Source: an uncultured Alphaproteobacteria bacterium (GTDB lineage Bacteria > Pseudomonadota > Alphaproteobacteria > UBA6615). Taken from it: a stretch of DNA of 64,000 bases. Shown piece by piece: positions 33,944 through 51,682 of the stretch. Both the position numbers and the translations under genes were made by a program. Under the pieces are notes generated by a model, which saw only the letters and a program-made list of their open reading frames with translations, was not told where the DNA came from and ran no database searches. The stretch lies in contig CAXYDO010000001.1 in assembly GCA_964276015.1 (NCBI GenBank), positions 74,627 to 138,626 on the forward strand, written 5' to 3'. Position 1 is the stretch's first letter, and each line of letters starts with the position of its first letter.

Positions 33944-34069
33944 TTCGTCCCTTCCAGCCTGCTTCGAGGCGCCGCCTTCGACGGCACCTCGGCATGAGGG
34001 TTGTCATTAAAACCTCACCCTGAGGAGACCGCGCAGCGGTCATCTCGAAGGGTCGACCGGAGCAAGCCC

Positions 34070-34858: not shown

Positions 34859-34880
34859 CGCTGGGCGTAACGCTGCGGGC

Positions 34881-35369
34881 TCAGGCCGGCACTCGGTACA
34901 TGAAGTAGCGCTCGGCGGGAACACCGTCAGGGAGCGGAAGTTCATCCCAGGCATCTGCCGGAAACCGGTTATTGGCGACCAGAATGCCGCCGGGCCGCAA
35001 CATCGGCACAAGTAACGGCACGATGCGCGCAGCAAGTACCGCATCCGCGTCCGTGCCGGTTCCCAGATCCGAATGGATCAAAGCGACCGTACGACCGAAG
35101 CGGGCCCCCGCGAATGCGAGTTGTTCATCGGCTTCCCCCAGAAAGATATGCTCGTGATCCGGTGTGCTTTTCGGATTGGAGTTCACGACCCGGTCAAACA
35201 CGAACACCTTGCGCCCCACCATGGTTTCGCGCAGGTGATCGAAGGTGCGGCCATTGCCCAACCCAAGATCGAGAACCGGACCGGGGGTGTCGGCCAGCAT
35301 TTGCGCGGCCGCGTTGAGGCAATCGCGCTGGGCCTGCATCCGGCGTATAAAACTGTCGAGACGACTCAT
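34881..35369 (-). CDS. Putative class I SAM-dependent methyltransferase-like protein
   Basis: 162 aa with a Gly-rich motif I-like LDLGLGNGRT. The assignment is tentative. Confidence 0.45.
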   Translation of the reverse strand: MSRLDSFIRRMQAQRDCLNAAAQMLADTPGPVLDLGLGNGRTFDHLRETMVGRKVFVFDRVVNSNPKSTPDHEHIFLGEADEQLAFAGARFGRTVALIHSDLGTGTDADAVLAARIVPLLVPMLRPGGILVANNRFPADAWDELPLPDGVPAERYFMYRVPA

Positions 35370-35389
35370 AATGGCTTGATCCGTGCAGA

Positions 35390-35842
35390 CTATTTTCTCT
35401 GCGCTAGGGCCTCGCGCAATTGCTGCGTCGTGTGCTCCAGACGTGAGGCCAGTTCGCGCATGATCTCGACCGACATTTCAGGGAATTCCGCCACCAGGCG
35501 AAAGAACAGATCCTTGGTAATCCGCAACGTCACCGTCTTGGCCGAAGCCTTCACGGTCGCGGTGCGCGGCACATCGCAGAGAATGGCAATTTCACCGACA
35601 AAGTCGTTCCGGCCCAGCGCGGCGACCTCGATCTGACCCTGATCGGTATCCACCAGCACCTTGGCCGCGCCTTCGATTATGATATAGGCCGCGTCCCCAA
35701 CATCGCCCTGACAAAACAGCACCTGGCCCGCCTCATAGGTGATGCGCTCGGATGTGAACGCCAGCAGCTTGAGCTTCGAGGGCTCCAGCTTGGCGAAAAG
35801 CGGAATGTTCCGCAGCAGCTCAACTTCTTCGTTCAGGCTCAC
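35390..35842 (-). CDS. Stand-alone cyclic nucleotide-binding (cNMP) domain protein
   Basis: 150 aa: the cNMP-binding beta-roll motifs (FGEIAILCDVPRTATVKA) and a C-terminal helix, but no DNA-binding or other effector domain. GTG start with GGGAGAG upstream. Confidence 0.75.
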   Translation of the reverse strand: MSLNEEVELLRNIPLFAKLEPSKLKLLAFTSERITYEAGQVLFCQGDVGDAAYIIIEGAAKVLVDTDQGQIEVAALGRNDFVGEIAILCDVPRTATVKASAKTVTLRITKDLFFRLVAEFPEMSVEIMRELASRLEHTTQQLREALAQRK

Positions 35843-35890
35843 GTCTTTTCTCTCCCATCGGTCCCGATAAGTACCAACTAATTGCCCGCA

Positions 35891-38545
35891 CTAGGCGGAT
35901 TCCAGCAACGCGTGAAGCGCTGTCCCATCCTGGTTTAGGTCGTCGAACGCGCCTTCTTCAACAAGGCGGCCATCATCAAGAACCACCACACGATCGAATT
36001 TTGAAGCCATCCCCACCCGGTTCACGATCCAGACGACACCCTTACGGGCGCGGGTCGCGAGGACTTTTTCAGCCAGGCGGTCCTGTGCTGAGGGGTCTAG
36101 CGCCGAGGTGGTCTCATTCAGGATCAGGAAATTAGCCCGCTTCAGTAAGGCCCGGGCAATCCCCAGCTTCTGACGCTGTCCAGTCGACAACCGGCTGCCA
36201 CTCACCCCGACCTGGAATTCCAACCCGGCCTCCAACACGGCGCCGCGCAAGCCCAGATTGTCGAGGGTATCCGCCACCAGGGCGCCGATACGGCCGCTGC
36301 CTTCAGCTTGCCCATGGACCAGTTTGCCGAACAGGATGTTGTCCTGCAGCGACCCGGCCGCATTGTAGTTTTGAGGATCGAAGAACTCGACCGCCCCTTT
36401 AAGAGAGTCGGGAAGCTTGGCGGCGAAAATCGCGCGCGCCTTCAAAATTTTGGCCTGCAATGTCTCATCGATCACGCCGAGACGATGCTGTGCCGTCACG
36501 AGCTTGAAGGGCAGGGAGAGCAGCGCGATCCGGTCCTCGGGACGCATATCGTCGAAGCCGTGTTTGTCCGTTCGCGAGAGCAGCGTACGAAACTCCGGCA
36601 GGTCTTCCGAGCTGATGAACGAATACTGTTCGAAGAACTCATGACCCGGCGGCAGATCGGCGAAAATCTCGATCATGGTTTCAGCCACTTCGCGACCGGC
36701 CTTGAGCATATCGTCGATCAAGTCGGCTTCACGCAGCACCTCGATGACGTATTCATTTTCCGCCATCAGATTGTGTTTAAAGGCGTCTCCCACCGTGGTA
36801 CCGAACAAGAGGTTTTCCGCGACACTGGCATTGGTGTTGTAGACCGCGCGGTCGAATTTCTCGACCAGGCCACGATACTCATCTTCGCCCAAACGGTCCG
36901 CCAGACCGGCCCGCGCCTTGAGAACCGATTCCGCAATATCCGGGCGCAATTCGGGGTCGACCGTGCCACGCAGACCGAGGTTGTAAATATCCTCAGAGAG
37001 CTCGACGATCTCGAGAATTTCGATCATCCGGACGAACAATTCAGCGGCGTCCGCGACCCCGGCGGCGTCATAATCGATCCAGTCCGCGCGGTAGTCGAAA
37101 TCGATATTCCCTGTCCCCGCCGCTTCCACGAAGTCACGCGCGCGTTTTATCGCTTCCGTGTCGTCATAGGCTGCCGACCGGACCGGTCGGTATTTGAGAC
37201 CGTAAAGCAGATTGTCGCGCACCGAGGCGGACTGCATGAAGGGGGCTGCGGAGACATAGGTGATCCGTCGACCGGTCACCGATTCCGGCAGTTCAATAAT
37301 ATTGTGCCCGGCGACCTGAAGCTGTCCCGATGTGGGTCGCGCCAGTCGGGCGAGCATCAGTCCGAAATAGTCCTTGCCGCTGCTGCCCGAGCCCGCCACG
37401 GCCACATTCCCGTCGATCGCGAGCTTTATACTGAGATTGGCCAGGCGGCCCACTTCGTCTTCATCGACGAGGCTGACATTGGAGATATCAAAATCGCCCT
37501 CGAACTTCAGATTTGCATCGGGATCGCCAAGCTGGAGAGTGTCATCGAGCATGTCGGGTACTTCGAACTGGCTGACCACCTGATCGTATTTGACCCGCGC
37601 ATCAGCCTGCTGCTGATACCAGTTCAGCATTTCCTTCCAAGGAGAGGACATTTCCCGATGGGCGCCGATCACCGCGACGAGCTGACCAATGTCCAAAGAC
37701 CCCTTGATCACCAGCAAGCCGCCCAAAAGATAGAAAAGAAACGGTGCCAGCTTGTCGAGGAAGTTGTTGAGGAACTTGATCATGTACTTCCGCTCAAAAA
37801 TCTCGAAGCGGATGTTGTAGATATTGCCCAGACGGTCGGCGAAGCGGCTCAGTTCCAGGTTCGATGTATCGTTCGCGTGGATGTCGACAATCCCACCGAC
37901 GGTCTCACCCACATGGTCAGACAGATGGCGGATCTGGCGCAAACGGGCCTTGCCGAGCGCGCTGACTTTCCTTTGCAGACGCGGCACCACGTAAATCTGC
38001 AGCGGGTAGAACGCCGCCGCCGCAACGCCCAGCAGCGGGTCCTGGACGATGATGAAGCCGATCGCGACAAGCAGCAATCCGCCCTGAAAGATCGGGTCGA
38101 CCACAGCACCGACGAAAAAGGCGCCGATGGGCTCAGATTCTGCGGTGATCATCGAAATGACCTCGCCCTGGCTGGCGCGCTTGAAATGAGGGATCGGGAA
38201 CCGCAAAACGCGTGAATAAAGGGAATAACGCAGCCGGCGCAACAGTCGCTCTGCCGTGCGGCCCTTCGTAATGTTGATTTTGAACTTCAGGCCGTTATTG
38301 ACGATGACGAGGGCCAAAAACAGCAGGCAGAGGGACACCAGGAAGGTGGGTTGTGATACCGCGAAGGGTATTTCGGCAAACCCAAGCAACGCCAGGGAAT
38401 AGACGTCCTGGGAGGCCCCGAGCGCCCGGTTGATGATCTGCTTGGGCAGATCGAGCAGCATGAATCCGATCGGCCAGGAAAAGACCACAAAAATCAAAAT
38501 GAAGAGTTGCTGACGTTTGCTATACCGCAGCACGAAGCTATACAT
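35891..38545 (-). CDS. Atypical ABC transporter (N-terminal type-I-exporter-like TMD plus one NBD with a triplicated helical-subdomain segment and degenerate catalytic motifs)
   Basis: 884 aa from the ATG at 38545. A six-helix TMD is followed by Walker A GSGSSGKD (Ser/Thr replaced by Asp), then three tandem copies of an S-x-x-[DE]-N-[LI]-L-[YF]-G segment (SVRDNLLYG, SVAENLLFG, SLQDNILFG). The signature LSTGQRQ follows, then Walker B ILNETT (Asp to Asn) and an H-loop IVNRV (His to Asn). Confidence 0.75.
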   Translation of the reverse strand: MYSFVLRYSKRQQLFILIFVVFSWPIGFMLLDLPKQIINRALGASQDVYSLALLGFAEIPFAVSQPTFLVSLCLLFLALVIVNNGLKFKINITKGRTAERLLRRLRYSLYSRVLRFPIPHFKRASQGEVISMITAESEPIGAFFVGAVVDPIFQGGLLLVAIGFIIVQDPLLGVAAAAFYPLQIYVVPRLQRKVSALGKARLRQIRHLSDHVGETVGGIVDIHANDTSNLELSRFADRLGNIYNIRFEIFERKYMIKFLNNFLDKLAPFLFYLLGGLLVIKGSLDIGQLVAVIGAHREMSSPWKEMLNWYQQQADARVKYDQVVSQFEVPDMLDDTLQLGDPDANLKFEGDFDISNVSLVDEDEVGRLANLSIKLAIDGNVAVAGSGSSGKDYFGLMLARLARPTSGQLQVAGHNIIELPESVTGRRITYVSAAPFMQSASVRDNLLYGLKYRPVRSAAYDDTEAIKRARDFVEAAGTGNIDFDYRADWIDYDAAGVADAAELFVRMIEILEIVELSEDIYNLGLRGTVDPELRPDIAESVLKARAGLADRLGEDEYRGLVEKFDRAVYNTNASVAENLLFGTTVGDAFKHNLMAENEYVIEVLREADLIDDMLKAGREVAETMIEIFADLPPGHEFFEQYSFISSEDLPEFRTLLSRTDKHGFDDMRPEDRIALLSLPFKLVTAQHRLGVIDETLQAKILKARAIFAAKLPDSLKGAVEFFDPQNYNAAGSLQDNILFGKLVHGQAEGSGRIGALVADTLDNLGLRGAVLEAGLEFQVGVSGSRLSTGQRQKLGIARALLKRANFLILNETTSALDPSAQDRLAEKVLATRARKGVVWIVNRVGMASKFDRVVVLDDGRLVEEGAFDDLNQDGTALHALLESA

Positions 38546-38747
38546 GCTTCGTTCTAATCGCTCGCTCACACACGTCTCCTTCGACCAACACTTGTCTGCA
38601 ACGCCGATGACAGTAGCGCATTCGGACAAGGGGGGTAAAACTATTGCCGGGGCGCTTGAAATCGACCCAAATTCAATGGGTTCCAGCCGGTGATAGGGAT
38701 GTGGCATAGTCCGCGCCGAATTCGCCAAGAACTTTAAGGAACGGCGC

Positions 38748-40007
38748 ATGGCGACCCGCAACAGGCGAGTCCTGATCTATAGCCACGATACGTTCGGCCT
38801 CGGGCATTTGCGCCGGTGCCGTGCGATCGCACATTCTCTGGTCGCCCACGATCCGGGCATCAGCGTACTTATTCTGTCCGGCTCCCCGATCATCGGCAAT
38901 TTCGAGTTTGGTGAACGGGTCGATTTCGTACGCATTCCCGGTGTGATCAAGCTGCAGAACGGCGAATACAAGCCCCTCAAGCTGCCGATGGACATCGAAG
39001 AAACCGTCGCGTTGCGCGCCAACATCATTCGCCACACCGCCCTTTCCTATGAGCCCGACGTGTTCATCGTCGACAAAGAACCCCACGGCATGCGGGGCGA
39101 GGTGCTCGACACACTGGTGGCTCTCAAAGAACGGGGCACCCAGCTGGTTCTCGGCCTGCGCGATATCCTCGACGACCCGGTGTTACTGGCCCCGGAGTGG
39201 CTGAACAAGAACGTGCTGCCGACCCTGGAAAACCTTTACGATGAAATCTGGATCTACGGCCTGCCCCAGGTCAGCAATCCGCTCGACGGCCTCGACCTGC
39301 CGGGCAAGGTCGTACGCAAGACGGTCTATACCGGCTATCTGCGTCGGGCCCTGCGCTCGAACTCGCTGCCGGTCGCTGAGCTACCTTTCAGGAACAAGCC
39401 CTATGTTCTGGTCACCGCGGGCGGCGGCGGCGACGGTGAGCAGGTATTCGACTGGGTGCTGCGCGCCTACGAGAATGACCCCGGCCAGCCCGTCCCTGCA
39501 TTTTTCGTCTTCGGGCCGTTTCTCGATCCCGACCTCCAGGCCCAGTTCAACGCCCGTATGGCGCGGCTCGACAATGTGGAATCGATCACCTTCGACAACC
39601 ACCCCGAGGCCTTCATCTCGAACGCCAGCGGCATCGTCGCCATGGGTGGTTACAACACGGTCTGTGAAATTCTCTCCTTCGACAAACCCGCCCTGATCGT
39701 GCCCCGGACCCGACCCCGGCTCGAACAGTTCCTGCGCGCCTCGCGAATGCAAGAAATGGGTTTGATCAAGATGCTGATGCCGGATTCGCCCGAAATCCTG
39801 GATAATCCACAGGAAGACTGGAAGATCATGGCAACGGCGTTGCGCCATCTGCCGCAGCAAAGCCTGCCCTCCGAGGTTGTCGTGCCCGGGCTTCTCGACG
39901 GGCTGCGCAACGTGGACCGCCTCGTCGATATCGCCGCCGGCCGCCGACGCGCCAAGATGCGGCTGGTCGAGCGCGACGTTCCAGGCCAGCACACCGGACA
40001 ATCCTGA
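38748..40007 (+). CDS. GT-B fold glycosyltransferase (GT1/GT28-like, 'predicted glycosyltransferase' family)
   Basis: N-terminus VLIYSHDTFGLGHLRRCRAIAHSL and a C-terminal Rossmann region GGYNTVCEIL. Paralogous to the gene at 43042-44253. Confidence 0.7.
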   Translation: MATRNRRVLIYSHDTFGLGHLRRCRAIAHSLVAHDPGISVLILSGSPIIGNFEFGERVDFVRIPGVIKLQNGEYKPLKLPMDIEETVALRANIIRHTALSYEPDVFIVDKEPHGMRGEVLDTLVALKERGTQLVLGLRDILDDPVLLAPEWLNKNVLPTLENLYDEIWIYGLPQVSNPLDGLDLPGKVVRKTVYTGYLRRALRSNSLPVAELPFRNKPYVLVTAGGGGDGEQVFDWVLRAYENDPGQPVPAFFVFGPFLDPDLQAQFNARMARLDNVESITFDNHPEAFISNASGIVAMGGYNTVCEILSFDKPALIVPRTRPRLEQFLRASRMQEMGLIKMLMPDSPEILDNPQEDWKIMATALRHLPQQSLPSEVVVPGLLDGLRNVDRLVDIAAGRRRAKMRLVERDVPGQHTGQS

Positions 40008-41279
40008 GTGCGCACGCGCCGGGACAACGGCGCCGACGCCGGAGTCGGGCGGGTTGCCGTCGTGCTCAAAGGCTATCCACGGCTCTCGGAAACCTTTGTC
40101 GCCCAGGAGCTGCTCGGACTTGAAGCCCGCGGCCACACAATCGACATCCATTCCCTGCGCCACCCCTACGATCCCACGACCCATCCGATCCACGACGAGA
40201 TCGCCGCCGCGGTCAGTTACCTGCCGGAGTATCTCTGGCGCGCGCCCATGCGGGTGCTGCGCGGCTGGTGGGCCGCCCGCAAGCTGCCGGGCTACGCGAC
40301 TGCCTCGCGTGATTTCTGGCAGGATTTTCGCCGCGACCGCACGTCGAACCGGCTCCGGCGGTTTGGCCAGGCTTGCGTGCTGGCCCAGGACCTGCACCCA
40401 GGGACCCGCCTGATCTACGCCCATTTTCTGCACACCCCGGCCTCGGTGGCGCGCTACGCCGCCCGGATGCGCGGCTTGCCCTTCGCAGTATCGGCCCATG
40501 CCAAGGATATCTGGACCACACCGGATTGGGAGAAACGCGAGAAGATCAGCGACGCGGCATGGATAACCACCTGCACCGCTTGCGGTGCTGACCATCTGCG
40601 CGCGCTGGTCCCGGGACAAGGTCACAAGGTTCTGCTGCACTATCACGGGCTCGATTTTGATCGCTTTACCGCGCCGGCCGCCGCCGAACGAGACCCAGGC
40701 GCGATCCGAATCGTCTCCGTGGGGCGCGTAGTCGAAAAAAAAGGTTATGACGATTTGCTGTCGGCCCTGGCGCAGCTGCCCGACACCCTTGACTGGGGTT
40801 TCGAACATATCGGCGGCGGTGCGCTCGAGGACATGATGCAGGCCCGGGCCGAACGTCTGGGCATCGCGGCGCGGATCACCTGGCAAGGACGCCAACCCCA
40901 AAGCGCAGTGAAGGCGCTGCTTGCCCAGGCCGATGTTTTTGTGCTGGCCAGCAAGATCGCCACCGATGGTGACCGGGACGGGCTGCCCAATGTTCTAATG
41001 GAAGCCCAGGCCCTTGGTGTGGCCTGTCTCTCCACCGCCGTGTCCGCCATCCCCGAGCTCATCACCGAGGGCGAAACCGGATTACTGGTGCCGCCGGGCG
41101 ATCCCGACGCGCTCGCCGCTGGGCTTGTGACATTGTCTACCGATGGTGCGCTGCGCGAACGGTTGGCCGCTGCTGGCAGCGCGCGGGTACACGCCGCGTT
41201 CAACATGGATGCCGGCATCGATGCGATTGCGGCCGCGCTGCTCGACCCCCAAACCCCGCAAACCCGGGCGGCCGCCTGA
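40008..41279 (+). CDS. Glycosyltransferase family 4 (GT4, GT-B)
   Basis: RVAVVLKGYPRLSETF N-terminus and a C-terminal EX7E-type region (EAQALGVACLSTAVSAIPELI). The GTG start abuts the upstream TGA. Confidence 0.8.
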   Translation: MRTRRDNGADAGVGRVAVVLKGYPRLSETFVAQELLGLEARGHTIDIHSLRHPYDPTTHPIHDEIAAAVSYLPEYLWRAPMRVLRGWWAARKLPGYATASRDFWQDFRRDRTSNRLRRFGQACVLAQDLHPGTRLIYAHFLHTPASVARYAARMRGLPFAVSAHAKDIWTTPDWEKREKISDAAWITTCTACGADHLRALVPGQGHKVLLHYHGLDFDRFTAPAAAERDPGAIRIVSVGRVVEKKGYDDLLSALAQLPDTLDWGFEHIGGGALEDMMQARAERLGIAARITWQGRQPQSAVKALLAQADVFVLASKIATDGDRDGLPNVLMEAQALGVACLSTAVSAIPELITEGETGLLVPPGDPDALAAGLVTLSTDGALRERLAAAGSARVHAAFNMDAGIDAIAAALLDPQTPQTRAAA

Positions 41280-41281
41280 TA

Positions 41282-42438
41282 TGCGGGTCGCGTTTTATGC
41301 TCCGATGAAGCCCCCCGACCACCCGGTTCCCTCGGGCGACCGGCATCTTGCCCGCTTGCTAATGACCGCGCTACGCCATAGTGGCCACACCCCGGAACTG
41401 ATCTCCCGCTTCGTCAGTCGCGATGGCGCCGGCGACCCGGACCGGCAAGCCCGGCTGCAAGGGCTCGGCGACAAGCTGGTCGACCGCCTCACCCGGCAAC
41501 TGGCCGCCCGGCCGCTCGAGCAACGCCCGAAAGCCTGGCTGACCTATCACCTCTATCACAAAGCCCCGGACTGGCTCGGGCCGCGAATCGCGGATGCTTT
41601 TCACATTCCCTATATCGTGGTCGAAGCTTCTTCAGCGCCGAAGCGCGCGGGCGGGCCCTGGGATATCGGCTATCAGGGCGCCAATGCGGCGATCGCACGC
41701 GCCGATGCCATCCTCACCCTCAACAGCGACGATTGGGACTGCTTGCAGCCGGTCCTGCGCGAACCGGTGCTGCACCGACGCCTGCTACCCTTCGTGGACG
41801 CCGCTCCATTCACAAAATCCCGGACGCGCCGCACCAATCTGCGGGACTGGTTCGCAGCCCGGGGCGGCTGGGACCCCGATACTGTCCTGTTACTCGCCGT
41901 GGGCATGATGCGGCCGGGCGCCAAGGAAAAGTCATACGCCGTGTTGGCCGAAGCGCTGACCCAGCTCTCCCGAACGAACTGGCATCTTTTGGTGGCGGGT
42001 GACGGACCCCAGCGCGACGCGATCACCGCGCAGCTGAACAACGCCGCGCCGGGGCGGGTCACCTTTCTTGGCACCCTCGATGAACCCGCGCTCACTGAAG
42101 CTTATACGGCCAGTGACATGCTGGTCTGGCCAGCCATCGACGAAGCCATCGGCATCGCTTTGCTGGAGGCCCAAGCCGCCGGGCTGCCTGTGGTCGCGGG
42201 CAAACAGCGCGGCGTTCCCGATATCATCGCCTCTGGGATCACCGGCCTGCTGCCCAAGCCCGGGGATGCCACCGCCTTCGCCCAGGCCCTGCAGCGGCTG
42301 ATCGACGATCCCGAGGCCCGCACCCGCATGGGCGAAGCCGCTTCCCGCCGGGTACTTGAACAATTCGATGTGCCGGTCGCTGCCGAACGCCTCGACGCCA
42401 CTTTGAAAACCGTCGCTTCTGTGGTCCGCGCCTCATGA
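41282..42438 (+). CDS. Glycosyltransferase family 4 (GT4)
   Basis: MRVAFYAPMKPPDHPVPSGDRHLARL N-terminus and a GT4 C-terminal region (EAQAAGLPVVAGKQRGVPDII). The track ORF start lies inside the upstream gene. Confidence 0.75.
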
Positions 42439-43022
42439 CCCGGCTGGTGTTTTTACGGCACGGCCTGACCGACTGGAACGTCGCGCGGCGGATGCAGGGC
42501 CACAAGGATATCCCGATCAATGACGACGGTCGGGACATGGTCGGGGTTTGGCGATTACCCCCCGACCTGGCCGACGCGAAAATCATTTCCAGCCCGCTGA
42601 TCCGGTGCATCGAAACCGCAGAAATCCTCAAATTAGCCCACCCCGAACTGGGCCCGATCGAAACCGACAAGCGGTTGATGGAGAAATCCTGGGGCATCTG
42701 GGAAGGGCGTGACCTGCACGAGATGGAGGCCGCCGTGGGCCCCGAAATCCACAGCGCAGACCACCGGCCCGAAAACGGTGAAAGCCGCCGGGACATGCTC
42801 GGACGGATCGGGGCGTTTCTGGCAGACGCGGCCCAAAGCGAGGCCCCCCGGATCGTCATCGCCCATCGCGGGGTGATCCGCACCGTCTACGGAATCGCCA
42901 CCGGCTGGGACTTGACCGGTGAAACCCCCGACGAGATGTCCCGACGACGGGCGCAGGTCTTCCGCGCAGCCCCGGACGGCACCGCGCAGATCGAACAACT
43001 CAACCTGCCCCTCAACGGTTGA
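42435..43022 (+). CDS. Histidine phosphatase superfamily protein (phosphoglycerate mutase/CobC-like)
   Basis: LVFLRHGLTDWN catalytic RHG motif; 195 aa. ATGA overlap with the upstream gene. Confidence 0.8.
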   Translation: MTRLVFLRHGLTDWNVARRMQGHKDIPINDDGRDMVGVWRLPPDLADAKIISSPLIRCIETAEILKLAHPELGPIETDKRLMEKSWGIWEGRDLHEMEAAVGPEIHSADHRPENGESRRDMLGRIGAFLADAAQSEAPRIVIAHRGVIRTVYGIATGWDLTGETPDEMSRRRAQVFRAAPDGTAQIEQLNLPLNG

Positions 43023-43041
43023 GCACAGGCAGCCCAGACCC

Positions 43042-44253
43042 ATGACCCAGCGCCCCAAAGTCTTCTTCTATGTGCAGCATCTGCTCGGTATCGGTCACCT
43101 GATGCGCGCCGGTGTCCTGACCCGCGCGATGGAATCCGCCGGGCTCGAGGTCACGCTCGTATCGGGGGGCGCCCCGGTCCCGGGATTCCAATCCGGCGCG
43201 AGCCACTTCGAACAACTGCCCCCGACCCGGGCCACAGACAAGTTTTTCAAGGTCCTGGTCGATGCGGATGATCGTCAGATCGACGATGCCTGGAAGGCCG
43301 GGCGCCGGGCGCGGTTGGTCGACGCCTTTGAACGCGTCCAGCACGACATTCTCATGATCGAATTGTTTCCGTTCGGGCGTCGCCAGATGCGGTTCGAACT
43401 CGAGCCCTTGCTCGACGCCGCGCAGGCCCGCGGATCAGACCGCCCGCTCATTGTTTCTTCCGTGCGCGACATCCTGGTCGAGCCCGGCAAGCCCGAGCGG
43501 ATCGACGAAATGGTCAGCCGCACCCGCACCTATTTCGACATGGTGCTGATTCACGGTGACGCGACCTTCATTTCCTTCGACGCGACGTTTCCCCGTATGG
43601 CAGAGATCGCCGACCTGTCGCACTACACAGGCTATGTAGCCGACCCGGCAGCATCCCGCGACGAAAACGGACCGGGCGCGGGAGAAGTGATCGTCTCCAC
43701 CGGCGGCGGTGCGGTCAGTGACGATATGCTGCAGGCCACCCTCGATGCGCGCGGACTTTCACCCCTTGCCAACACCCCCTGGCGCGTCCTGATCGGCCAC
43801 AACCTTCCCGAAGCCGAATTTACCGCTTATCGGAAAAACGTCCCAAACGGCGTCACGGTCGAGCGCGCCCGACCAGACTTCCCCGAACTGTTGGCCAATT
43901 GCGCGCTCTCAATATCCCAGGGCGGCTACAACACGGTGATGGAATTGCTGGCGGCGGGCACCCGCGCGGTCTGCATTCCCTACGCCGGCGGCCTCGAAAG
44001 TGAACAAACCCTGCGCTGCGGGCTACTAGCCGAAAAAGGTGCACTCGAAATTGTCGACTCCGACGCGGTCACCGCAGCAAATGTTGCCGCCGCAATCACC
44101 CGCGCGATGGCCCGTCCCGATCAATTTTCTGTGCCTGTAGACATGGCCGGCGCCCCAAAAACCGCCGCGATGCTTCACTCGGCACTGAATAAACATCGAA
44201 AAGCCGATTTTGGGGCCGAAACTGACGAAATCGTAGTTAACCCCGAGCCCTGA
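43042..44253 (+). CDS. GT-B fold glycosyltransferase, paralogue of 38748-40007
   Basis: VFFYVQHLLGIGHLMRAGVLTRAM N-terminus and a C-terminal GGYNTVMELL region. ATG at 43042. Confidence 0.7.
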   Translation: MTQRPKVFFYVQHLLGIGHLMRAGVLTRAMESAGLEVTLVSGGAPVPGFQSGASHFEQLPPTRATDKFFKVLVDADDRQIDDAWKAGRRARLVDAFERVQHDILMIELFPFGRRQMRFELEPLLDAAQARGSDRPLIVSSVRDILVEPGKPERIDEMVSRTRTYFDMVLIHGDATFISFDATFPRMAEIADLSHYTGYVADPAASRDENGPGAGEVIVSTGGGAVSDDMLQATLDARGLSPLANTPWRVLIGHNLPEAEFTAYRKNVPNGVTVERARPDFPELLANCALSISQGGYNTVMELLAAGTRAVCIPYAGGLESEQTLRCGLLAEKGALEIVDSDAVTAANVAAAITRAMARPDQFSVPVDMAGAPKTAAMLHSALNKHRKADFGAETDEIVVNPEP

Positions 44254-44326
44254 TCCGGCTAGTGTGAACACAACAAGGTGATCTGGGTTTAGGGGCTCGG
44301 ATACGCAGGGAGAGCTGTACGGACCC

Positions 44327-45136
44327 ATGGCCTTGGCGATGACCAAAGGCGCGCTTCAGCCAGAAACGGCATGGGAAGCCCTCACGCGCGAGCTCGACCT
44401 CTGGGAGGAGGACGGGCGCACTGCCACATTCTGGTGGCGCGACGACGATGCGGCGGACCACACGGACGCGCTCAATGAATTGCTGCTCTTGCGCACCGCC
44501 CTCGGCGTACCGCTCGCGCTTGCCGTTATTCCGGCCACCGCGACGTCTGAACTTCGTGCCGCGCTGGACCAGGGCAACGCGATCGCCGTGCTCCAGCATG
44601 GGTATTCCCACACCAATTTCGCCGGCCCCGACGACCGCAAGATCGAGCTCGACGGCAGTCGGCCCGCCACCTATGTGATCGGTGATCTGGCGACCGGGTT
44701 GCAGGCGATGGAACGCTTTGCCGGGTTTGTCCCGGTGATAGTGCCCCCCTGGAACCGCATCGCGCCGCATTTGATTCCGTTCCTGCCCGAACTCGGGTTT
44801 CGCGGCCTCAGCACTCTCGGACCCCGCAACCGGCCCTCGCCGATTGCCGGTCTGAACGCGAATAATGTCCATCTGGACGTGATCGACTGGCGGGGGCATG
44901 CGACCGGCACCGCCGGTGGCTTCCGCGGCGGCGAAGCCATCCTGGCCGACGCGGTGGCCCATCTCGAAGCACGGCGCACCGGCGCGGTAGACGCCGACGA
45001 AGCCACCGGCCTCATGACCCATCACGCGGTTATGAAAACGGATTCGAAAGAGTTTGTGCGCCAGTTTGTTGACCACACCAACCAACACCCGGCGAGCCAA
45101 TGGTTATCCGCCGAGGAAGTCTTTCCCACCCCATGA
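44327..45136 (+). CDS. Putative polysaccharide deacetylase-like protein (divergent NodB-type)
   Basis: FWWRDDDAADHTD ...VLQHGYSHTNF resembles the Asp-Asp and His-x-x-x-His metal-binding motifs of CE4 deacetylases. Family membership is inferred from these motifs only. Confidence 0.4.
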   Translation: MALAMTKGALQPETAWEALTRELDLWEEDGRTATFWWRDDDAADHTDALNELLLLRTALGVPLALAVIPATATSELRAALDQGNAIAVLQHGYSHTNFAGPDDRKIELDGSRPATYVIGDLATGLQAMERFAGFVPVIVPPWNRIAPHLIPFLPELGFRGLSTLGPRNRPSPIAGLNANNVHLDVIDWRGHATGTAGGFRGGEAILADAVAHLEARRTGAVDADEATGLMTHHAVMKTDSKEFVRQFVDHTNQHPASQWLSAEEVFPTP

Positions 45137-45687
45137 GCACGCACCGTTATCATCGCCGCGATCTGAACGCGGATTTGTTGCGCGCCGGACTGGGCAGCGC
45201 GGCCTGCATCACGCCGTTATTCCTCCTCGAGCCTGGTGCCATCGCCAGCTATGTGCTGGCCGTGCCCGCCGCGTTCTTTATTCTTTTTGGATTGCGCACC
45301 TGGGCCCATGGCCACACCCGGGTCACTCTGGACGACAGCGGCGTCGTGATCAACGGCTGGACCGCGTCTCGTCTTTCATGGCGCGATTTGGAAACCCTGA
45401 AGCTTTCCTATTTTTCGACCCGCCGCGATCGTGAGGCCGGCTGGATGCATCTCACCCTGCGGGGAGCCGGCACCAAGTTGAGCATCCATTCGAACCTCAA
45501 AGGGTTCGAAGACGTCTGCCGGCAGGCGCTGCGCGCCGCCCAGACCCACGACGTGGAATTATCAGATGCCACGGCGCGTAATTTTGCCGCCCTGGGTATG
45601 GGCAGCACGGGCGAGTTGGCCCCTCCCATTGATACAACCCCGGCCGCGCTGACCGGCTGGGGCAACCCGGCGGATTGGCGGCGATGA
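45133..45687 (+). CDS. Membrane-anchored bacterial PH-like domain protein (hypothetical)
   Basis: Two N-terminal TM helices then a soluble domain. ATGA overlap with the upstream gene. No confident family assignment. Confidence 0.4.
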   Translation: MSTHRYHRRDLNADLLRAGLGSAACITPLFLLEPGAIASYVLAVPAAFFILFGLRTWAHGHTRVTLDDSGVVINGWTASRLSWRDLETLKLSYFSTRRDREAGWMHLTLRGAGTKLSIHSNLKGFEDVCRQALRAAQTHDVELSDATARNFAALGMGSTGELAPPIDTTPAALTGWGNPADWRR

Positions 45688-47572
45688 AAGATCTTTTGAG
45701 TGTACGCGACCTGAAGGTCGAGTTCACTGTCCACGGCGAGCAGATTCGTGCTGTTGACGGCGTCTCGTTCCGCATTCGTCCCGGCAGAACCACCGCTCTG
45801 GTCGGTGAATCCGGCTCGGGAAAATCGGTTTGCAGCCAGGCGATCATGGGAATTCTCCCCAATATCGGATCTGTGGCTGGCGGGGAAATCCTGTTTACCG
45901 ACCCGAATGGCGACGGTGAAACCATTGACCTGGCCAAGCTCGATCGGGACGGCCCAAAGCTGCGGTCGATCCGTGGCGGCCGGGTGTCGATGATCTTCCA
46001 GGAGCCCATGACATCGCTATCGCCCCTGCACACGATCGGCGATCAGATTTCCGAAGCCCTGCATCTGCACCGCAAAGTGAACAAGCCAGCGGGCCGGGAA
46101 TTGTCGACCGACATGCTGCGTCTGGTTGGGTTTCCCGATCCCGCACGGGCCATGAAAACCTATCCGTTCGAACTTTCAGGCGGGCTCCGTCAGCGGGCCA
46201 TGATCGCCATGGCGCTGGTCTGCCGACCGGCTCTGCTCATTGCCGACGAGCCGACCACCGCCCTCGATGTGACAATCCAGGCCCAAATTCTCAAGCTGAT
46301 CAAGGATTTGCAATCCGAGCTGCACATGGCCGTGCTGATGATCACCCATGATCTCGGCGTGGTCGCGAATGTGGCCGAGGAAGTCGTGGTGATGTTCCGC
46401 GGCAAAGTCATGGAAAGCGGCAGCCTCGAAGCGGTCTATCAGAACCCGGGGCATCCCTATCTGAAGGCTCTTTTGAACGCTGTCCCCCGGTTCGAACTCA
46501 AGGAAGGCGAACGACTTGTCCCCCTGCGCGAGATCAAGGCAGAGACCGGCAATATGCTCAAGCCGGACGCCGACCGTGCGCGCACCAAAACCGACGGGCC
46601 GGTCCTGCGCGTCGAAAATCTGTCAAAGAGCTTCACGATCCGAAAAGGAAGCTATTTCGGCTCCCAGGAATCACGTGAGGTTCTGGCTGTCGACGATGTC
46701 AGTTTCGAGATTGCCCCCGGCGAATGCCTCGGGCTGGTGGGCGAGTCTGGCTGTGGCAAAACAACCACCTCCAAACTGATCATGCGCGCCCTGAGTACCG
46801 ATACCGGCACGGTGACCTTCTTCGAAGGCGGCCAGCCCGTTAACGTGCTGGCTCTTCAGGGGCGCGAGCTCAAGGATTTCCGCCGCCGGGTCCAGTTCAT
46901 GTTCCAGGACCCGTTCGGATCGCTGAACCCGCGCATGACCGTGTTCGATATCATTTCCGAACCGCTTATCATCCACAAGATAGGGACAGCGCAAACCCGC
47001 GCAGACGCCGTACGCGAATTGATGCGGCTGGTTGGCCTCGACCCGCGCTTCCTCAATCGCTACCCGCACAGCTTCTCCGGCGGGCAGCGCCAGCGCATCG
47101 GCATCGCCCGCGCTTTGGCTCTGAAGCCTGACGTGCTGATTTGCGACGAACCGGTCAGCGCGCTCGATGTCTCGATTCAGGCTCAGATCCTGAACCTGCT
47201 GAAGGGACCTGCAATCCGAGCTCGGGGCTGACCTATCTGTTCATCAGTCACAATCTGGCGGTTGTCGACTATATCGCCGACCGGATCGCCGTCATGTGCG
47301 CCGGGCGCCTCGTCGAAATGGCGCCAAGCAAAACCCTGTTCCGCAATCCGGCCCATCCCTACACACAGGCATTGTTGTCGGCGGTGCCCGAACCCAATAT
47401 CGAACGCAAGCTCGATCTGAGCTTGTTGATGGCGGACCGTGCGTCCGACCCGGCCAGCTGGCCTGCCCCCTTTACCATCGACGCCGATAGCCGCCCGCGG
47501 CTTGTCGAACTCGGCGATGGCCATTTTGTTCGCGCCGATCCCGATCGCGGCGCACTCCCGGAGGTCGCGTGA
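45684..47572 (+). pseudogene. Fused double-NBD ABC ATPase of a peptide/opine/nickel-type importer (DppD-DppF fusion), interrupted by a +1 frameshift near 47204
   Basis: NBD1 has Walker A, signature and Walker B intact ([28 protein letters not shown]) and NBD2 does too ([27 protein letters not shown]). Frame 1 stops at 47231 (..[13 protein letters not shown]). The true continuation [19 protein letters not shown]... is in the next frame. An extra G in AAGGGA at 47201-47206 explains the break. Confidence 0.75.
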
Positions 47573-47573
47573 C

Positions 47574-49474: not shown

Positions 49475-49477
49475 ACA

Positions 49478-50476
49478 ATGCTGCGCTATATTGCCCATCG
49501 CCTGCTCTTAATGATCCCGACCCTGCTCGCGGTGAGCGCGATCGTGTTCCTTATTATTCAGCTGCCCCCCGGGGACTATCTGGAAACCCTGATCGCAGAA
49601 ATGCAGTCCCGGGGAGAGGCCGTCGACAAGAACCAGATCGAGGCGCTACGCAGTGCCTATGGTCTCGATAAGTCGGCCATCGAACAATACTTCACGTGGT
49701 TGTTCGGCTTGCTCCAGGGCGATTTTGGGTGGTCGTTTGAACATAACCGTCCGGTGTCCGAGCTGATCGGACAGCGCATCCTCCTGACCTTCGTGGTAAC
49801 CTTCTCCACCATCCTGTTCATCTGGGTGGTGAGCTTCACCATCGGCACTTATGTCGCCACCCGCCAGTACAGCGTGCCCGACCACATCGCGACCCTGATC
49901 GGCTATCTTGGCCTGGCCACACCAAATTTCTTGCTCGCCCTTGTGCTGATGTATTTCGCCAACCAATGGTTCGACACGTCGATCGGCGGGATCATGGATG
50001 ACAAATACCGCAACCAGCCCTGGTCCCTCGACAAGATGTTCTCGGTGCTCGAGCATCTCTGGATTCCCGTGATCGTGATCGGCACCTCCGGCACCGCCGG
50101 GATGATCCGCCGCCTGCGCGCTAATCTTCTCGACGAATTACAGAAACAATATGTGGTGACCGGCCGCGCCAAAGGGCTCCACCCGCGCAAGCTGCTCTGG
50201 AAGTACCCGTTGCGCGTTGCGCTCAACCCCTTCATCGCCGATATCGGGTCGATCCTGCCCGAGGTGATCTCCGGCTCCGCCGTGGTTGCCGTGGTCCTCA
50301 ATCTCGATATTACCGGTCGTATGTTGCTCGACGCACTGCGCGCCCAGGACATGTTCCTCGCCGGGTCGTTCCTGATGTTGCTCTCCACGCTGGTGGTGGT
50401 CGGCACCCTGGCGTCGGATCTCGCGCTAGCCGCACTCGATCCCCGAATACGTCTCAGCGGGGGGGCAACCCGATGA
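49478..50476 (+). CDS. ABC transporter permease (DppB/OppB-like)
   Basis: 332 aa, six TM helices, an N-terminal MLRYIAHRLLLMIPTLL motif and an EAA-like loop. Intact. Confidence 0.85.
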   Translation: MLRYIAHRLLLMIPTLLAVSAIVFLIIQLPPGDYLETLIAEMQSRGEAVDKNQIEALRSAYGLDKSAIEQYFTWLFGLLQGDFGWSFEHNRPVSELIGQRILLTFVVTFSTILFIWVVSFTIGTYVATRQYSVPDHIATLIGYLGLATPNFLLALVLMYFANQWFDTSIGGIMDDKYRNQPWSLDKMFSVLEHLWIPVIVIGTSGTAGMIRRLRANLLDELQKQYVVTGRAKGLHPRKLLWKYPLRVALNPFIADIGSILPEVISGSAVVAVVLNLDITGRMLLDALRAQDMFLAGSFLMLLSTLVVVGTLASDLALAALDPRIRLSGGATR

Positions 50477-51678: not shown

Positions 51679-51682
51679 GAAC

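What the first reader, a model, noticed from the sequence alone, without database searches (positions are those of the whole stretch)
35390..38545. ABC 'exporter' with a triplicated NBD helical-subdomain segment and three degenerate catalytic motifs, co-transcribed with a stand-alone cNMP-binding protein
The 884-aa protein has a normal six-helix type-I exporter TMD, but its single NBD departs from the canonical layout in several ways.
- Walker A reads GSGSSGKD: the Mg-coordinating Ser/Thr is Asp.
- About 300 residues sit between the Q-loop and the signature LSTGQRQ, made of three tandem copies of the S-x-x-[DE]-N-[LI]-L-[YF]-G stretch (SVRDNLLYG, SVAENLLFG, SLQDNILFG). Two of these copies are also followed by an NLGLRG[TA]V element.
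- Walker B is ILNETT (Asp to Asn) and the H-loop His is Asn (IVNRV).
Three of the four residues needed for ATP hydrolysis are therefore substituted while the LSGGQ-type signature is kept. That pattern is expected for a non-catalytic or regulatory half-transporter rather than a pump. The next gene in the operon is a 150-aa protein that is essentially only a cNMP-binding domain. This pairing suggests a cyclic-nucleotide-gated or cyclic-nucleotide-sensing membrane complex. I do not know of a characterised system with this architecture.
Basis: partly seen in the sequence, partly recalled or inferred. Interest (0 to 1): 0.8.

Follow-up and report, generated by a model that had tools for sequence, protein, structure and literature searches.

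The report
ATPase-dead ABC exporter with cyclic-nucleotide sensor
This is a widespread but unstudied alphaproteobacterial membrane protein built like an ABC export pump, whose ATP "engine" has lost its catalytic residues, gained two extra copies of one engine sub-part, and is always paired or fused with a cyclic-nucleotide sensor next to sugar-transferase genes.

Summary

It is not an assembly artefact. At least 588 species carry the same architecture. ATPase motifs are degenerate family-wide: Walker A Lys is present in 32/67 cluster representatives, catalytic Glu in 21/67 and H-loop His in 5/67. The repeat motifs are almost invariant (N578 and G582 in 67/67). Rhizobium and Sinorhizobium orthologues in the same gene cluster lack both the Walker A Lys and the catalytic Glu.

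The cNMP-binding gene lies directly downstream in 80/80 loci. It is fused to the C-terminus in all 9 long homologues tested. Its phosphate-binding cassette is invariant.

ABC*-cNMP-methyltransferase faces a conserved divergent operon of four glycosyltransferases, a histidine phosphatase, two unknown proteins and an Opp-type importer.

Best reading: a non-hydrolysing ABC-fold membrane component switched by a dedicated cyclic-nucleotide receptor, serving a methylated-glycoside pathway. I found no characterised member. I rate it a new variant of a known kind, interest about 0.7.

The parts
35891..38569 (-). ABC* gene. A type IV (ABCB-like) half-transporter with a degenerate NBD. It is 892 aa from GTG 38569, or 884 aa from ATG 38545, which is the numbering used throughout.
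   Evidence: The ORF is. An AAGGAG Shine-Dalgarno sequence plus GTG is seen, and the exact 892-aa sequence is in the public collection. Pfam gives ABC_membrane plus a split ABC_tran. The AF2 model has pLDDT 79.5 and pTM 0.70. Foldseek hits TmrAB, PCAT1, TAP and P-gp at E 1e-16 to 1e-19.
37556..38545 (-). Transmembrane domain, aa 1-330, with six long helices.
   Evidence: Pfam ABC_membrane covers 67-293. The AF2 helices are listed. Conservation is 0.6-0.85 per 20-aa block.
37226..37513 (-). N-terminal part of the RecA-like core, aa 345-440. It carries a degenerate A-loop (Leu359), Walker A GSGSSGKD (385-392) and a Q-loop without Gln (VSAAP).
36875..37273 (-). Helical-subdomain copy 1, aa 425-557. 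It contains SVRDNLLYG, an internal ~55-aa insert, and YNLGLRG.
   Evidence: hhalign matches copy 1 to copies 3 and 2. G524, L525 and R526 are invariant in 118 homologues.
36392..36874 (-). Helical-subdomain copy 2 plus a ~110-aa helical extension, aa 558-718. It contains NTNASVAENLLFG, DLPPGHEFFEQ and H687-R688, and is the most conserved part of the family.
36146..36391 (-). Helical-subdomain copy 3, in the canonical position, aa 719-800. It contains YNAAGSLQDNILFGK, an X-loop-like QVGVSG, and the signature LSTGQRQ.
   Evidence: It aligns to the signature region of P-gp and MsbA. Conservation is shown.
35894..36145 (-). C-terminal part of the RecA-like core, aa 801-884. Walker B is ILNE (Asp to Asn, Glu kept), the D-loop SALD is kept, and the H-loop His is replaced by Asn (IVNRV).
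35390..35842 (-). Stand-alone cNMP receptor, 150 aa. It consists of a CNB domain plus a long C-terminal helix, with no DNA-binding domain.
   Evidence: Pfam PF00027 matches at E=4.9e-21. The best PDB matches are PKG and PKA CNB domains. The phosphate-binding cassette G83-E84...P92-R93-T94-A95 is invariant in 80 orthologues. The gene lies directly downstream of ABC* in 80/80 loci and is fused in 9/9 long homologues tested.
34881..35369 (-). SAM methyltransferase (Methyltransf_17), third gene of the ABC*-cNMP operon, 20 bp after the cNMP stop.
   Evidence: Pfam matches at E=4e-56. PDB 3IHT matches at E=3.5e-38. It is present downstream in 59/80 loci. In S. meliloti an FkbM-type methyltransferase occupies this position.
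38748..44253 (+). Divergent operon, first half. It encodes a GT1/GT28-like GT (38748-40007), a GT4 (40008-41279), a second GT4 (about 41143-42438), a His_Phos_1 phosphatase (42435-43022), and a second GT28_C-type GT (ORF from 42919, probable start ATG 43042, to 44253).
   Evidence: Pfam and NCBIfam assignments are. The genes are conserved upstream and divergent in 64-76 of 80 loci. The same order is found in L087 and L088. Rhizobiaceae orthologues are 40-52% identical.
44327..51678 (+). Divergent operon, second half. It encodes two unknown proteins (44327-45136; 45100-45687, which has a TM-like segment), a fused double ABC ATPase of GsiA/YejF type (45675-47231), an SBP_bac_5 protein (47593-49098) and two permeases (49478-50476; 50473-51678).
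   Evidence: Pfam and NCBIfam assignments are. The same gene order is found in L087 and L088. The SBP and permeases are 52-63% identical to those next to the GTs in R. lentis and S. meliloti.

Best explanation
ABC* is the membrane component of a conserved alphaproteobacterial module. It is an ABCB-type (type IV exporter fold) half-transporter, presumably a homodimer, and its nucleotide-binding domain has become a pseudo-ATPase.

The catalytic residues are lost or decaying. Meanwhile the helical subdomain, which in normal ABC proteins holds the Q-loop groove for the TMD coupling helix and leads to the signature motif, has been triplicated and extended. The result is a large, highly conserved cytoplasmic platform.

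A dedicated cyclic-nucleotide receptor with an intact phosphate-binding cassette is either co-translated from the next gene or fused to the NBD C-terminus. I infer that it binds this platform. On cAMP or cGMP binding it would take over the switching role that ATP binding and hydrolysis play in ordinary ABC exporters. That switch would open or close the TMD pathway, or alter the activity of partner enzymes.

The cargo or target is the product of the divergently transcribed operon of four soluble GT-B glycosyltransferases, a histidine phosphatase and a methyltransferase. That product is most likely a small methylated glycoside or glycolipid. The same operon also encodes an Opp/Gsi/Yej-type uptake system.

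Shown here: the fold, the triplication, the motif decay, the synteny, the fusions and the intact cNMP site.

Inferred: absence of hydrolysis, physical contact with the receptor, homodimer formation, gating, and the identity and direction of the cargo.

My confidence by step:
- non-hydrolytic NBD, about 0.8
- cNMP receptor is a physical partner, about 0.85
- works with the GT/importer operon, about 0.7
- acts as a cNMP-gated translocation path rather than a pure scaffold or regulator, about 0.4
For: Fold:
- Pfam gives ABC_membrane plus a split ABC_tran.
- The AF2 model has pLDDT 79.5.
- Foldseek hits TmrAB, PCAT1, TAP and P-gp.

Insert and triplication:
- The insert is about 297 aa.
- hhalign copy 2 vs copy 3 gives E=1.7e-10.

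Motif decay:
- Among 118 close homologues, Walker B is Asn in 106, the H-loop is Asn in 98, Walker A S/T is Asp/Glu in 88, and the Q-loop Gln is present in only 9.
- Among 67 broad representatives, Walker A Lys is present in 32, Walker B Asp in 18, catalytic Glu in 21 and H-loop His in 5.
- In the same set, N578 and G582 are present in 67/67, G740 in 66, N736 in 63 and R688 in 64.
- The S. meliloti and R. lentis orthologues sit in the orthologous cluster but read GGTSGGGE / GPNGSGAE at Walker A and FNQP / FNRP at Walker B.

Partner:
- The cNMP gene is directly downstream on the same strand in 80/80 loci, with gaps of 6-127 bp in 79 of them.
- A C-terminal cNMP_binding fusion is present in 8/8 long representatives plus Ruegeria TM1040. 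Of 66 full-length representatives, 19 are at least 1010 aa.
- The phosphate-binding cassette is invariant.

Operon context.

No second ABC exporter gene is adjacent in any locus inspected.
Against: - There is no biochemical or genetic data for any member.
- In the window's own clade the Walker A Lys (107/118; Arg in 11), the catalytic Glu (110/118) and the D-loop are kept. ATP binding, and perhaps slow hydrolysis, cannot be excluded there. The Walker A Ser/Thr to Asp/Glu change together with the Walker B Asp to Asn change could be a compensatory re-arrangement of Mg2+ ligands rather than a loss.
- The glycosyltransferase link is clade-specific. Ruegeria fused forms and a Methylobacterium plasmid copy have no GT neighbours, and the Methylobacterium copy has no cNMP gene or domain either.
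- CNB-type domains can bind other ligands. The CNB domain of HetC binds ppGpp in vitro (PMC10986499).
- Only a monomer could be modelled. No contact between the receptor and the insert was computed.
- Two fused forms carry a GGDEF-like tail. This fits a signalling-scaffold role at least as well as a transport role.
Confidence: 0.6

Rival explanations
1. ABC* is still an ATP-driven exporter or flippase for the glycoconjugate made by the neighbouring GTs, like MsbA, PglK or NdvA, but with an unusual active site. Walker A Asp/Glu would replace Walker B Asp as the Mg2+ ligand. The cNMP protein would merely modulate its rate.
For: The window clade keeps the Walker A Lys, the catalytic Glu, the D-loop, and the Ser and Gln of the signature. 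The TMD is as conserved as in real exporters. The best NCBIfam similarities are to MsbA, HepA and the glucan exporter. The GT operon context also fits.
Against: Orthologues in the same gene cluster in Rhizobium and Sinorhizobium lack the Walker A Lys, the Walker B Asp and the catalytic Glu. Half of the family representatives lack the Lys, and only 5/67 have the H-loop His. The A-loop aromatic and the Q-loop Gln are also absent. A homodimer would have two equally degenerate sites, which is not known for any active ABC pump (established knowledge reviewed in PMC7756269, listed).
Confidence: 0.17
2. ABC* does not translocate anything. It is a membrane-anchored signalling or scaffold protein, in the way SUR regulates Kir6.2. 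It would recruit and regulate the soluble GTs, or the importer, in response to cNMP. The extra helical subdomains would serve as docking grooves.
For: The strongest conservation lies in the cytoplasmic insert rather than in the catalytic motifs. Some fused forms have an added GGDEF-like output domain. Family members occur without GT neighbours. The GTs have no TM segments and would need a membrane anchor if the acceptor is a lipid.
Against: The six-helix TMD and its intracellular coupling regions are well conserved, at 0.7-0.85 identity to consensus per block. That is more than an anchor would need. There is no direct evidence of GT binding.
Confidence: 0.2
3. The odd NBD is a local artefact or a decaying pseudogene, caused by assembly duplication or recent in-frame tandem duplication.
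For: Three near-identical 9-residue motifs in one protein could suggest a mis-assembly.
Against: The same 884-892-aa architecture is found in at least 588 species-level genomes. The exact protein occurs on independent contigs, in a cluster of 38 members. There is no DNA repeat beyond the 15 nt of the motif codons. The repeats are the most conserved residues of the family. The AF2 model of the insert is confident.
Confidence: 0.01

Closest known systems
Homodimeric ABCB-type (type IV fold) bacterial exporters of lipid-linked or soluble glycans: MsbA, NdvA/ChvA, PglK, HepA
   Same: The architecture is one TMD of six helices plus one NBD per chain. The best sequence and fold matches are to this group: MsbA TIGR02203 at E=5e-50, NdvA 7znu, and TmrAB, PCAT1 and TAP by Foldseek. 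The gene also lies next to glycosyltransferase genes.
   Different: Scores are far below every NCBIfam cut-off, for example 170 against 602 bits for MsbA. A 297-aa insert triplicates the helical subdomain. The A-loop, Walker A S/T, Q-loop, Walker B Asp and H-loop are all substituted. An obligate cNMP receptor partner is present. S. meliloti MsbA2 (SMb21191) is a different gene at a different pSymB position: about 938 kb against about 843 kb.
ABC proteins with degenerate nucleotide-binding sites that act as channels or regulators: CFTR, SUR1/2, and heterodimeric exporters such as TM287/288, TmrAB and BmrCD
   Different: Those proteins always retain one consensus, hydrolysing site, contributed by a second non-identical NBD. 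Here there is a single NBD type and no partner gene, so both sites would be degenerate. Regulation is by a CNB protein rather than by an R-domain or Kir6.2. The CFTR insertions are short disordered loops, not duplicated subdomains.
CNB-domain-bearing ABC exporters of cyanobacteria (HetC-type PCATs; NCBIfam TIGR03796/TIGR03797 with the accessory protein TIGR03896 'cyc_nuc_ocin')
   Same: A cyclic-nucleotide-binding-type domain is physically attached to, or encoded next to, an ABCB-type exporter. The 150-aa protein hits TIGR03896 weakly (E=1.3e-11, below cut-off).
   Different: In HetC the CNB domain is N-terminal and sits alongside a C39 peptidase. The ATPase catalytic residue is essential, and the domain binds ppGpp in vitro (PMC10986499). 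Here the CNB is C-terminal or separate, there is no peptidase, the ATPase is degenerate, and the context is glycosyltransferases rather than peptides.
ABC-superfamily ATPases with large insertions between Walker A and the signature motif (Rad50/SMC coiled coils, UvrA insertion domains). This comparison rests on my own knowledge.
   Same: The topological position of the insertion is the same: after the Q-loop region and before the signature motif.
   Different: Those insertions are coiled coils or unrelated domains in soluble, catalytically active ATPases. Here the insert consists of duplicated helical subdomains in a membrane half-transporter with dead motifs.
Second-messenger receptors that gate polysaccharide synthesis or export post-translationally (c-di-GMP with the BcsA PilZ domain, Alg44 or PelD). 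This is a functional analogy from my own knowledge.
   Same: A dedicated nucleotide second-messenger receptor is attached to the membrane export or synthesis machine of a glycan gene cluster.
   Different: The messenger class differs (cNMP rather than c-di-GMP), as do the receptor fold and the membrane machine.

Membership tests
ABC transporter, type IV / ABCB-like exporter fold | N-terminal six-helix ABC_membrane TMD with long intracellular helical extensions | tested here: met
   Pfam PF00664 matches at E=1.3e-16 over residues 67-293. Foldseek gives TMt 0.60-0.66 to TmrAB, PCAT1 and TAP.
ABC transporter, type IV / ABCB-like exporter fold | C-terminal NBD with a RecA-like core plus a helical subdomain carrying the signature motif | tested here: met
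   PF00005 matches in two pieces. The protein aligns to the P-gp NBD on both sides of the insert. The signature is LSTGQ.
Catalytically competent ABC ATPase | Consensus Walker A GxxGxGK[ST], Q-loop Gln, Walker B hhhhD-E, H-loop His and an A-loop aromatic residue | tested here: not met
   In the window protein Walker A reads K-D, the Q-loop residue is Ala, Walker B is N-E, the H-loop residue is Asn and the A-loop residue is Leu. The same holds family-wide. Rhizobiaceae orthologues lack both the Lys and the Glu.
MsbA / NdvA(ChvA) / HlyB / CydDC equivalogs (NCBIfam) | Whole-protein score at or above the curated cut-off | tested here: not met
   The best hit is TIGR02203 MsbA at 170.5 bits against a cut-off of 602. 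All 168 hits fall below their cut-offs.
Heterodimeric ABC exporters with one degenerate site | Two different half-transporter genes, normally adjacent, one of them supplying a consensus site | tested here: not met
   No second ABC exporter gene lies within 6-10 kb in the 80 loci or in L081, L082, L087 and L088. A partner encoded elsewhere in the genome cannot be excluded.
Cyclic-nucleotide-binding (CNB, PF00027) domain proteins | CNB beta-barrel with a phosphate-binding cassette: Gly-Glu ... Arg-[Thr/Ser]-Ala | tested here: met
   PF00027 scores 74.9 bits against a cut-off of 27.5. GEIAIL-DVP-RTA aligns to the cassettes of PKG and PKA. The cassette is invariant in 80 orthologues. Actual ligand binding cannot be tested here.
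CRP/FNR transcription factors | C-terminal helix-turn-helix DNA-binding domain after the CNB domain | tested here: not met
   The protein ends after the C-helix at residue 150. CRP-type NCBIfam hits cover only the CNB part and fall below cut-off (54 against 266 bits). There is no HTH Pfam hit.
HetC-type / NHLP CNB-associated peptidase-containing ABC exporters | N-terminal CNB and/or C39 peptidase domain, together with an active ATPase | tested here: not met
   There is no peptidase or N-terminal CNB domain. TIGR03796 and TIGR03797 score far below their cut-offs. The CNB domain is C-terminal in the fused relatives.

The most novel reading that the evidence does not exclude
The family is an ABC-exporter scaffold in which ATP has been replaced as the conformational switch. 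Binding of cAMP or cGMP to the attached CNB receptor, transmitted through the triplicated helical-subdomain platform, would open and close the transmembrane pathway. That would make it a second-messenger-gated, ATP-independent ABC-fold channel or facilitator, a bacterial invention analogous to CFTR. It would release or flip a methylated glycoside made by the adjacent operon, which the co-encoded Opp-type importer can take back up.
Probability: 0.25. Interest if true: 0.9.

Novelty: new variant of a known kind. Interest (0 to 1): 0.7.

Why it matters
ABC exporters are defined by ATP-powered NBD dimerisation. This family spans hundreds of species and includes genetic model organisms: Sinorhizobium meliloti pSymB, Rhizobium leguminosarum plasmids and Azospirillum.

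Three things make it a natural experiment on what the ABC scaffold can do without ATP hydrolysis:
- It keeps the exporter fold but lets the ATPase motifs decay.
- It conserves a triplicated helical subdomain instead.
- It is obligately coupled to a cyclic-nucleotide receptor.

It would also give cAMP or cGMP a direct, post-translational membrane target in Alphaproteobacteria, where few cNMP effectors other than CRP-like regulators are known. It further flags an unstudied conserved glycoside synthesis and uptake operon. All of this is directly testable in tractable organisms.

Tried and rejected
1. Identity with S. meliloti MsbA2 (SMb21191), a symbiosis-essential ABC exporter in a GT operon. 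Rejected. SMb21188 lies at about 938 kb on pSymB (PMC3687685), whereas the homologue of this protein lies at about 843 kb. That operon also has an acyltransferase and no cNMP gene.

2. Assembly artefact or recent duplication. Rejected.

3. Heterodimer partner nearby. None found.

4. Regulatory elements. The promoter and terminator scan of 34600-39000 gave nothing above shuffle expectation. Rfam on 34000-52000 gave no hit.

5. Literature. Six full-text searches found no paper on this family. I could not recover the SMb locus tag, because the PLSDB copies of pSymB are unannotated.

6. Foldseek against afdb50 was not available.

7. Whole-protein Foldseek against PDB said nothing about the insert. 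An insert-only model was needed.

8. Search for a nucleotide cyclase near the locus. None was found among the 33 window ORFs scanned with Pfam. The rest of the window was not scanned.

9. The product of the GT operon could not be identified. The GT28-like enzymes match MurG, MGT and MJ1255 only weakly. The two unknown proteins have no Pfam or NCBIfam match.

10. Docking of the cNMP protein on ABC* could not be modelled, because only single chains can be predicted and no coordinates are returned.

Full report
**What is there**

The finding covers two co-directional genes on the minus strand. The first is a large ORF at 35891..38545 (884 aa from the ATG). The second is a 150-aa ORF at 35390..35842, starting 48 bp after the stop of the first.

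- GSGSSGKD, 385-392
- SVRDNLLYG, 441
- SVAENLLFG, 574
- SLQDNILFG, 732
- NLGLRG, 522 and 763
- LSTGQRQ, 786
- ILNETT, 808
- IVNRV, 840

The true start is probably the GTG at 38569. It lies six bases after an AAGGAG and gives 892 aa. Most homologues are 892 aa, and the exact 892-aa sequence is on record in the public collection.

**Fold and insert**

- Pfam finds an ABC_membrane domain (67-293) and an ABC_tran domain split in two.
- Against PDB sequences, residues 270-451 align with P-glycoprotein 312-493. That stretch runs through Walker A, the Q-loop position and the 'ENIxYG' helix. Residues 777-873 align with P-gp 522-618, covering the X-loop, signature, Walker B, D-loop and H-loop. P-gp has 29 residues between these two blocks, whereas this protein has 326. 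The insert is therefore about 297 aa and sits inside the helical subdomain.
- An AlphaFold2 model built on 67 family sequences is confident (pLDDT 79.5, pTM 0.70). The NBD and insert reach pLDDT 80-94 and the insert is mostly helical.
- Foldseek places the whole chain with type IV/ABCB exporters, including TmrAB, PCAT1, TAP and P-gp.

**The triplication is real and ancient**

- hhalign on family sub-alignments gives copy 2 (558-718) against copy 3 (716-800) a probability of 96.9% and E=1.7e-10 over 55 columns. The shared pattern is VExFDxxxYNxxAS..N.LFG followed by a 'VL..l.L....G' helix.
- Copy 1 matches copy 3 over its first 22 columns (P=8.8e-5). It matches copy 2 over the later helix (P=4.5e-4). 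Copy 1 therefore carries an internal insert of about 55 aa, and copy 2 a helical extension of about 110 aa.
- Each unit corresponds to a canonical stretch of an ABC NBD: the beta-strand, Q-loop, 'SxxxNIxFG' helix and 'vLe.vgL' helix. Only copy 3 continues into the signature motif.
- At the DNA level only the 15 nt encoding N-[IL]-L-F-G recur. This is neither a recent duplication nor a mis-assembly.
- In the hhalign register the invariant equivalents are G524, G617 and G774.

**It is a family, and the family is losing its ATPase**

*Spread.* The word-indexed protein search returned more than 120 full-length homologues of 884-892 aa at 49-99% identity. Almost all are Alphaproteobacteria, including Azospirillum, Thalassobaculum, Inquilinus, Nisaea, Sneathiella and Oceanibacterium. 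The insert alone, searched against 1.84 billion cluster representatives, hits 1015 clusters at E<=1e-3 and 693 at E<=1e-10. tblastn against plasmids and chromids finds it in 144 Rhizobium and 80 Sinorhizobium replicons, including S. meliloti pSymB.

*Close homologues.* Counts below are among the 118 full-length homologues.

| Position | Residues found |
|---|---|
| After the Walker A Lys | Asp 49, Glu 39, Thr/Ser 25 |
| Walker B Asp | Asn in 106 |
| H-loop His | Asn in 98 |
| Q-loop | Gln in 9 |
| A-loop aromatic | Leu in 107 |
| Walker A Lys | kept in 107 (Arg in 11) |
| Catalytic Glu | kept in 110 |
| D-loop Asp | kept in 118 |

*Broad family.* Counts below are among 67 sequences: 66 full-length 50%-identity representatives plus the query.

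| Residue | Present in |
|---|---|
| Walker A Lys | 32 |
| Walker B Asp | 18 |
| Catalytic Glu | 21 |
| H-loop His | 5 |
| Signature Ser | 29 |
| Copy-2 Asn578 | 67 |
| Copy-2 Gly582 | 67 |
| Copy-3 Gly740 | 66 |
| Copy-3 Asn736 | 63 |
| His687 | 62 |
| Arg688 | 64 |

Selection therefore acts on the insert and not on the catalytic site.

*The decisive comparison.* The S. meliloti and R. lentis proteins lie in the orthologous gene cluster. Their neighbours are 40-60% identical to the window's. Yet they read GGTSGGGE / GPNGSGAE at Walker A and FNQP / FNRP at Walker B. They have no Lys, no Asp, no catalytic Glu and no H-loop His. From established ABC enzymology, such sites cannot hydrolyse ATP and probably cannot bind it. 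Whatever the shared function is, it does not need ATP hydrolysis.

**The cyclic-nucleotide receptor is an integral partner**

- The 150-aa protein is a CNB domain (PF00027, E=4.9e-21) followed by a long C-terminal helix. It has no DNA-binding domain.
- Its closest solved relatives are the CNB domains of PKG and PKA. The phosphate-binding cassette GEIAIL-DVP-RTA aligns with theirs.
- That cassette is invariant in 80 orthologues.
- In the 80 fetched loci the cNMP gene is on the same strand downstream of ABC* in 80/80. It is immediately adjacent (6-127 bp) in 79. In the remaining locus the methyltransferase lies between the two genes.
- Family representatives fall into two length classes, and 19 of 66 are at least 1010 aa. 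All eight long proteins scanned have the architecture ABC_membrane, split ABC_tran, then C-terminal cNMP_binding. Two of them have an additional GGDEF-like tail. Ruegeria TM1040 has the same fused architecture.
- Gene fusion together with invariant adjacency is strong genomic evidence that the receptor works on the NBD side of ABC*.
- One exception was seen. A Methylobacterium plasmid copy has neither a fused nor an adjacent CNB.

**The system is larger than the finding**

*Downstream of the cNMP gene.* A Methyltransf_17 SAM methyltransferase starts 20 bp after the cNMP stop (34881..35369). It is present in 59/80 loci and is similar to PDB 3IHT. In S. meliloti an unrelated FkbM-type methyltransferase occupies that slot. 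This suggests that methylation is part of the pathway.

*The divergent operon.* It begins 178 bp upstream of ABC* on the other strand and contains:
- a GT1/GT28-like glycosyltransferase
- two GT4 enzymes
- a His_Phos_1 phosphatase (42435..43022)
- a second GT28_C-type enzyme
- two proteins without any family match
- a fused double ABC ATPase of GsiA/YejF type
- an SBP_bac_5 binding protein
- two permeases

*Conservation.*
- The four GTs are conserved in 64-76 of the 80 loci.
- The whole order, importer included, recurs in two distant genomes at 69% and 50% ABC* identity.
- In Rhizobium and Sinorhizobium the order is rearranged to SBP-permease-permease-GT-GT-GT-ABC*-cNMP on one strand. The components remain orthologous: SBP 52%, permeases 60-63%, GTs 40-52% and cNMP 57-60% identity.
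- Retention of the linkage through a rearrangement argues for a functional unit.
- The Roseobacter fused forms have no GT neighbours. The ABC*-CNB pair is therefore the core, and the glycoside pathway is one application of it.

**How it most likely works**

*Shown:*
- exporter fold
- triplicated helical subdomain
- decaying catalytic motifs
- intact cNMP site
- obligate adjacency or fusion with the receptor
- a conserved GT, phosphatase, methyltransferase and importer neighbourhood

*Inferred:*
- ABC* is a homodimer, since no partner gene is present.
- Its NBDs no longer cycle on ATP.
- The enlarged helical platform holds the family's most conserved residues. It repeats the very element that forms the coupling-helix groove in normal NBDs. 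I infer that it docks the CNB receptor and perhaps the soluble GTs.
- cNMP binding takes over the switching role and controls the TMD pathway for the operon's product. That product is probably a small methylated glycoside or glycolipid, and the co-encoded importer may retrieve it or supply its precursor.

I put about 0.6 on this overall picture. The specific claim that ABC* still translocates something, rather than acting only as a regulated scaffold, gets about 0.4.

*Main rivals:*
- An atypical but active ATP-driven exporter (about 0.17). The Rhizobiaceae orthologues weaken this reading.
- A pure signalling or scaffold protein (about 0.2). The GGDEF-tailed fusions and the GT-less lineages favour this reading.

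**Comparison with known systems and novelty**

- Structurally ABC* belongs to the ABCB/type IV exporter fold. It fails the catalytic-motif test and every NCBIfam equivalog cut-off.
- It is not S. meliloti MsbA2.
- Degenerate sites are well known, but only in heterodimers or full transporters that keep one consensus site (review PMC7756269, listed).
- CNB domains on ABC exporters are known from HetC-type PCATs. Those are N-terminal, sit with a peptidase and an essential ATPase, and bind ppGpp in vitro (PMC10986499).
- Large insertions at this topological position are known from Rad50/SMC and UvrA (my own knowledge). They are not duplicated helical subdomains.
- All database names for family members are generic, and six full-text searches found no study of the family.

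I therefore rate it a new variant of a known kind. The upside is that it could be the first ABC-fold membrane protein family switched by a cyclic nucleotide instead of ATP.

Noticed in passing
window 45675-51678 (+): An Opp/Gsi/Yej-type ABC importer (fused double ATPase, SBP_bac_5, two permeases) closes the glycosyltransferase operon. Its SBP and permeases are 52-63% identical to the ones next to the orthologous GT-ABC*-cNMP cluster in Rhizobium and Sinorhizobium, although the gene order differs. Its ligand is unknown.
   Followed up: partly
window 44327-45136 (+) and 45100-45687 (+): Two conserved operon members have no Pfam or NCBIfam match. The 269-aa protein has an N-terminal 'FWWRDDDA' motif that recalls deacetylase-like enzymes (my impression only). 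The 195-aa protein has a TM-like segment at residues 37-69. Both recur at the same position in L087 and L088.
   Followed up: partly
P0203 and P0210 (family representatives): Two fused family members carry a GGDEF-like region after the C-terminal cNMP domain (TMD, NBD*, CNB, GGDEF). The GGDEF E-values are 3.9e-4 and 3.2e-8. This hints at cross-talk between cNMP and c-di-GMP signalling in some lineages.
   Followed up: no
L082:11956-12705 (S. meliloti pSymB) compared with window 34881-35369: The gene after the cNMP gene is a methyltransferase in both lineages, but from unrelated families: FkbM/Methyltransf_21 in S. meliloti and Methyltransf_17 in the window. This looks like a non-orthologous replacement at the same operon position.
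   Followed up: partly
window 38569 compared with 38545: The ABC* start codon is most likely the GTG at 38569, preceded by AAGGAG, which gives 892 aa rather than 884. The mechanical ORF extends further, to the TTG at 38761, and there overlaps the divergent GT gene start at 38748.
   Followed up: yes
window 36308-38215 (+): A 635-aa open frame runs antisense inside the ABC* gene. It has no independent support and is typical of high-GC DNA. I treated it as non-coding.
   Followed up: no
window 1148-6031 (-): A 1627-aa NAD-specific glutamate dehydrogenase of the large bacterial type (Bac_GDH_CD plus ACT domains). Ordinary housekeeping genes surround the locus: TctA/TctC transporter, a molybdopterin oxidoreductase and FtsK at 29124-31559. 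This indicates a chromosomal rather than a mobile context.
   Followed up: no
L085 (Methylobacterium radiotolerans plasmid pNYY1_4, 2826-5621): A 931-aa family member sits on a 48.5-kb mobilizable plasmid. It has neither a fused nor an adjacent cNMP domain and no GT genes. It is the only exception to the ABC*-CNB pairing that I saw.
   Followed up: partly
Genome-contig hits L003 and L027: Two loci with typical alphaproteobacterial synteny come from MAGs labelled Flavobacteriales and Mycobacteriaceae. These are probably binning or labelling errors rather than horizontal transfer.
   Followed up: no
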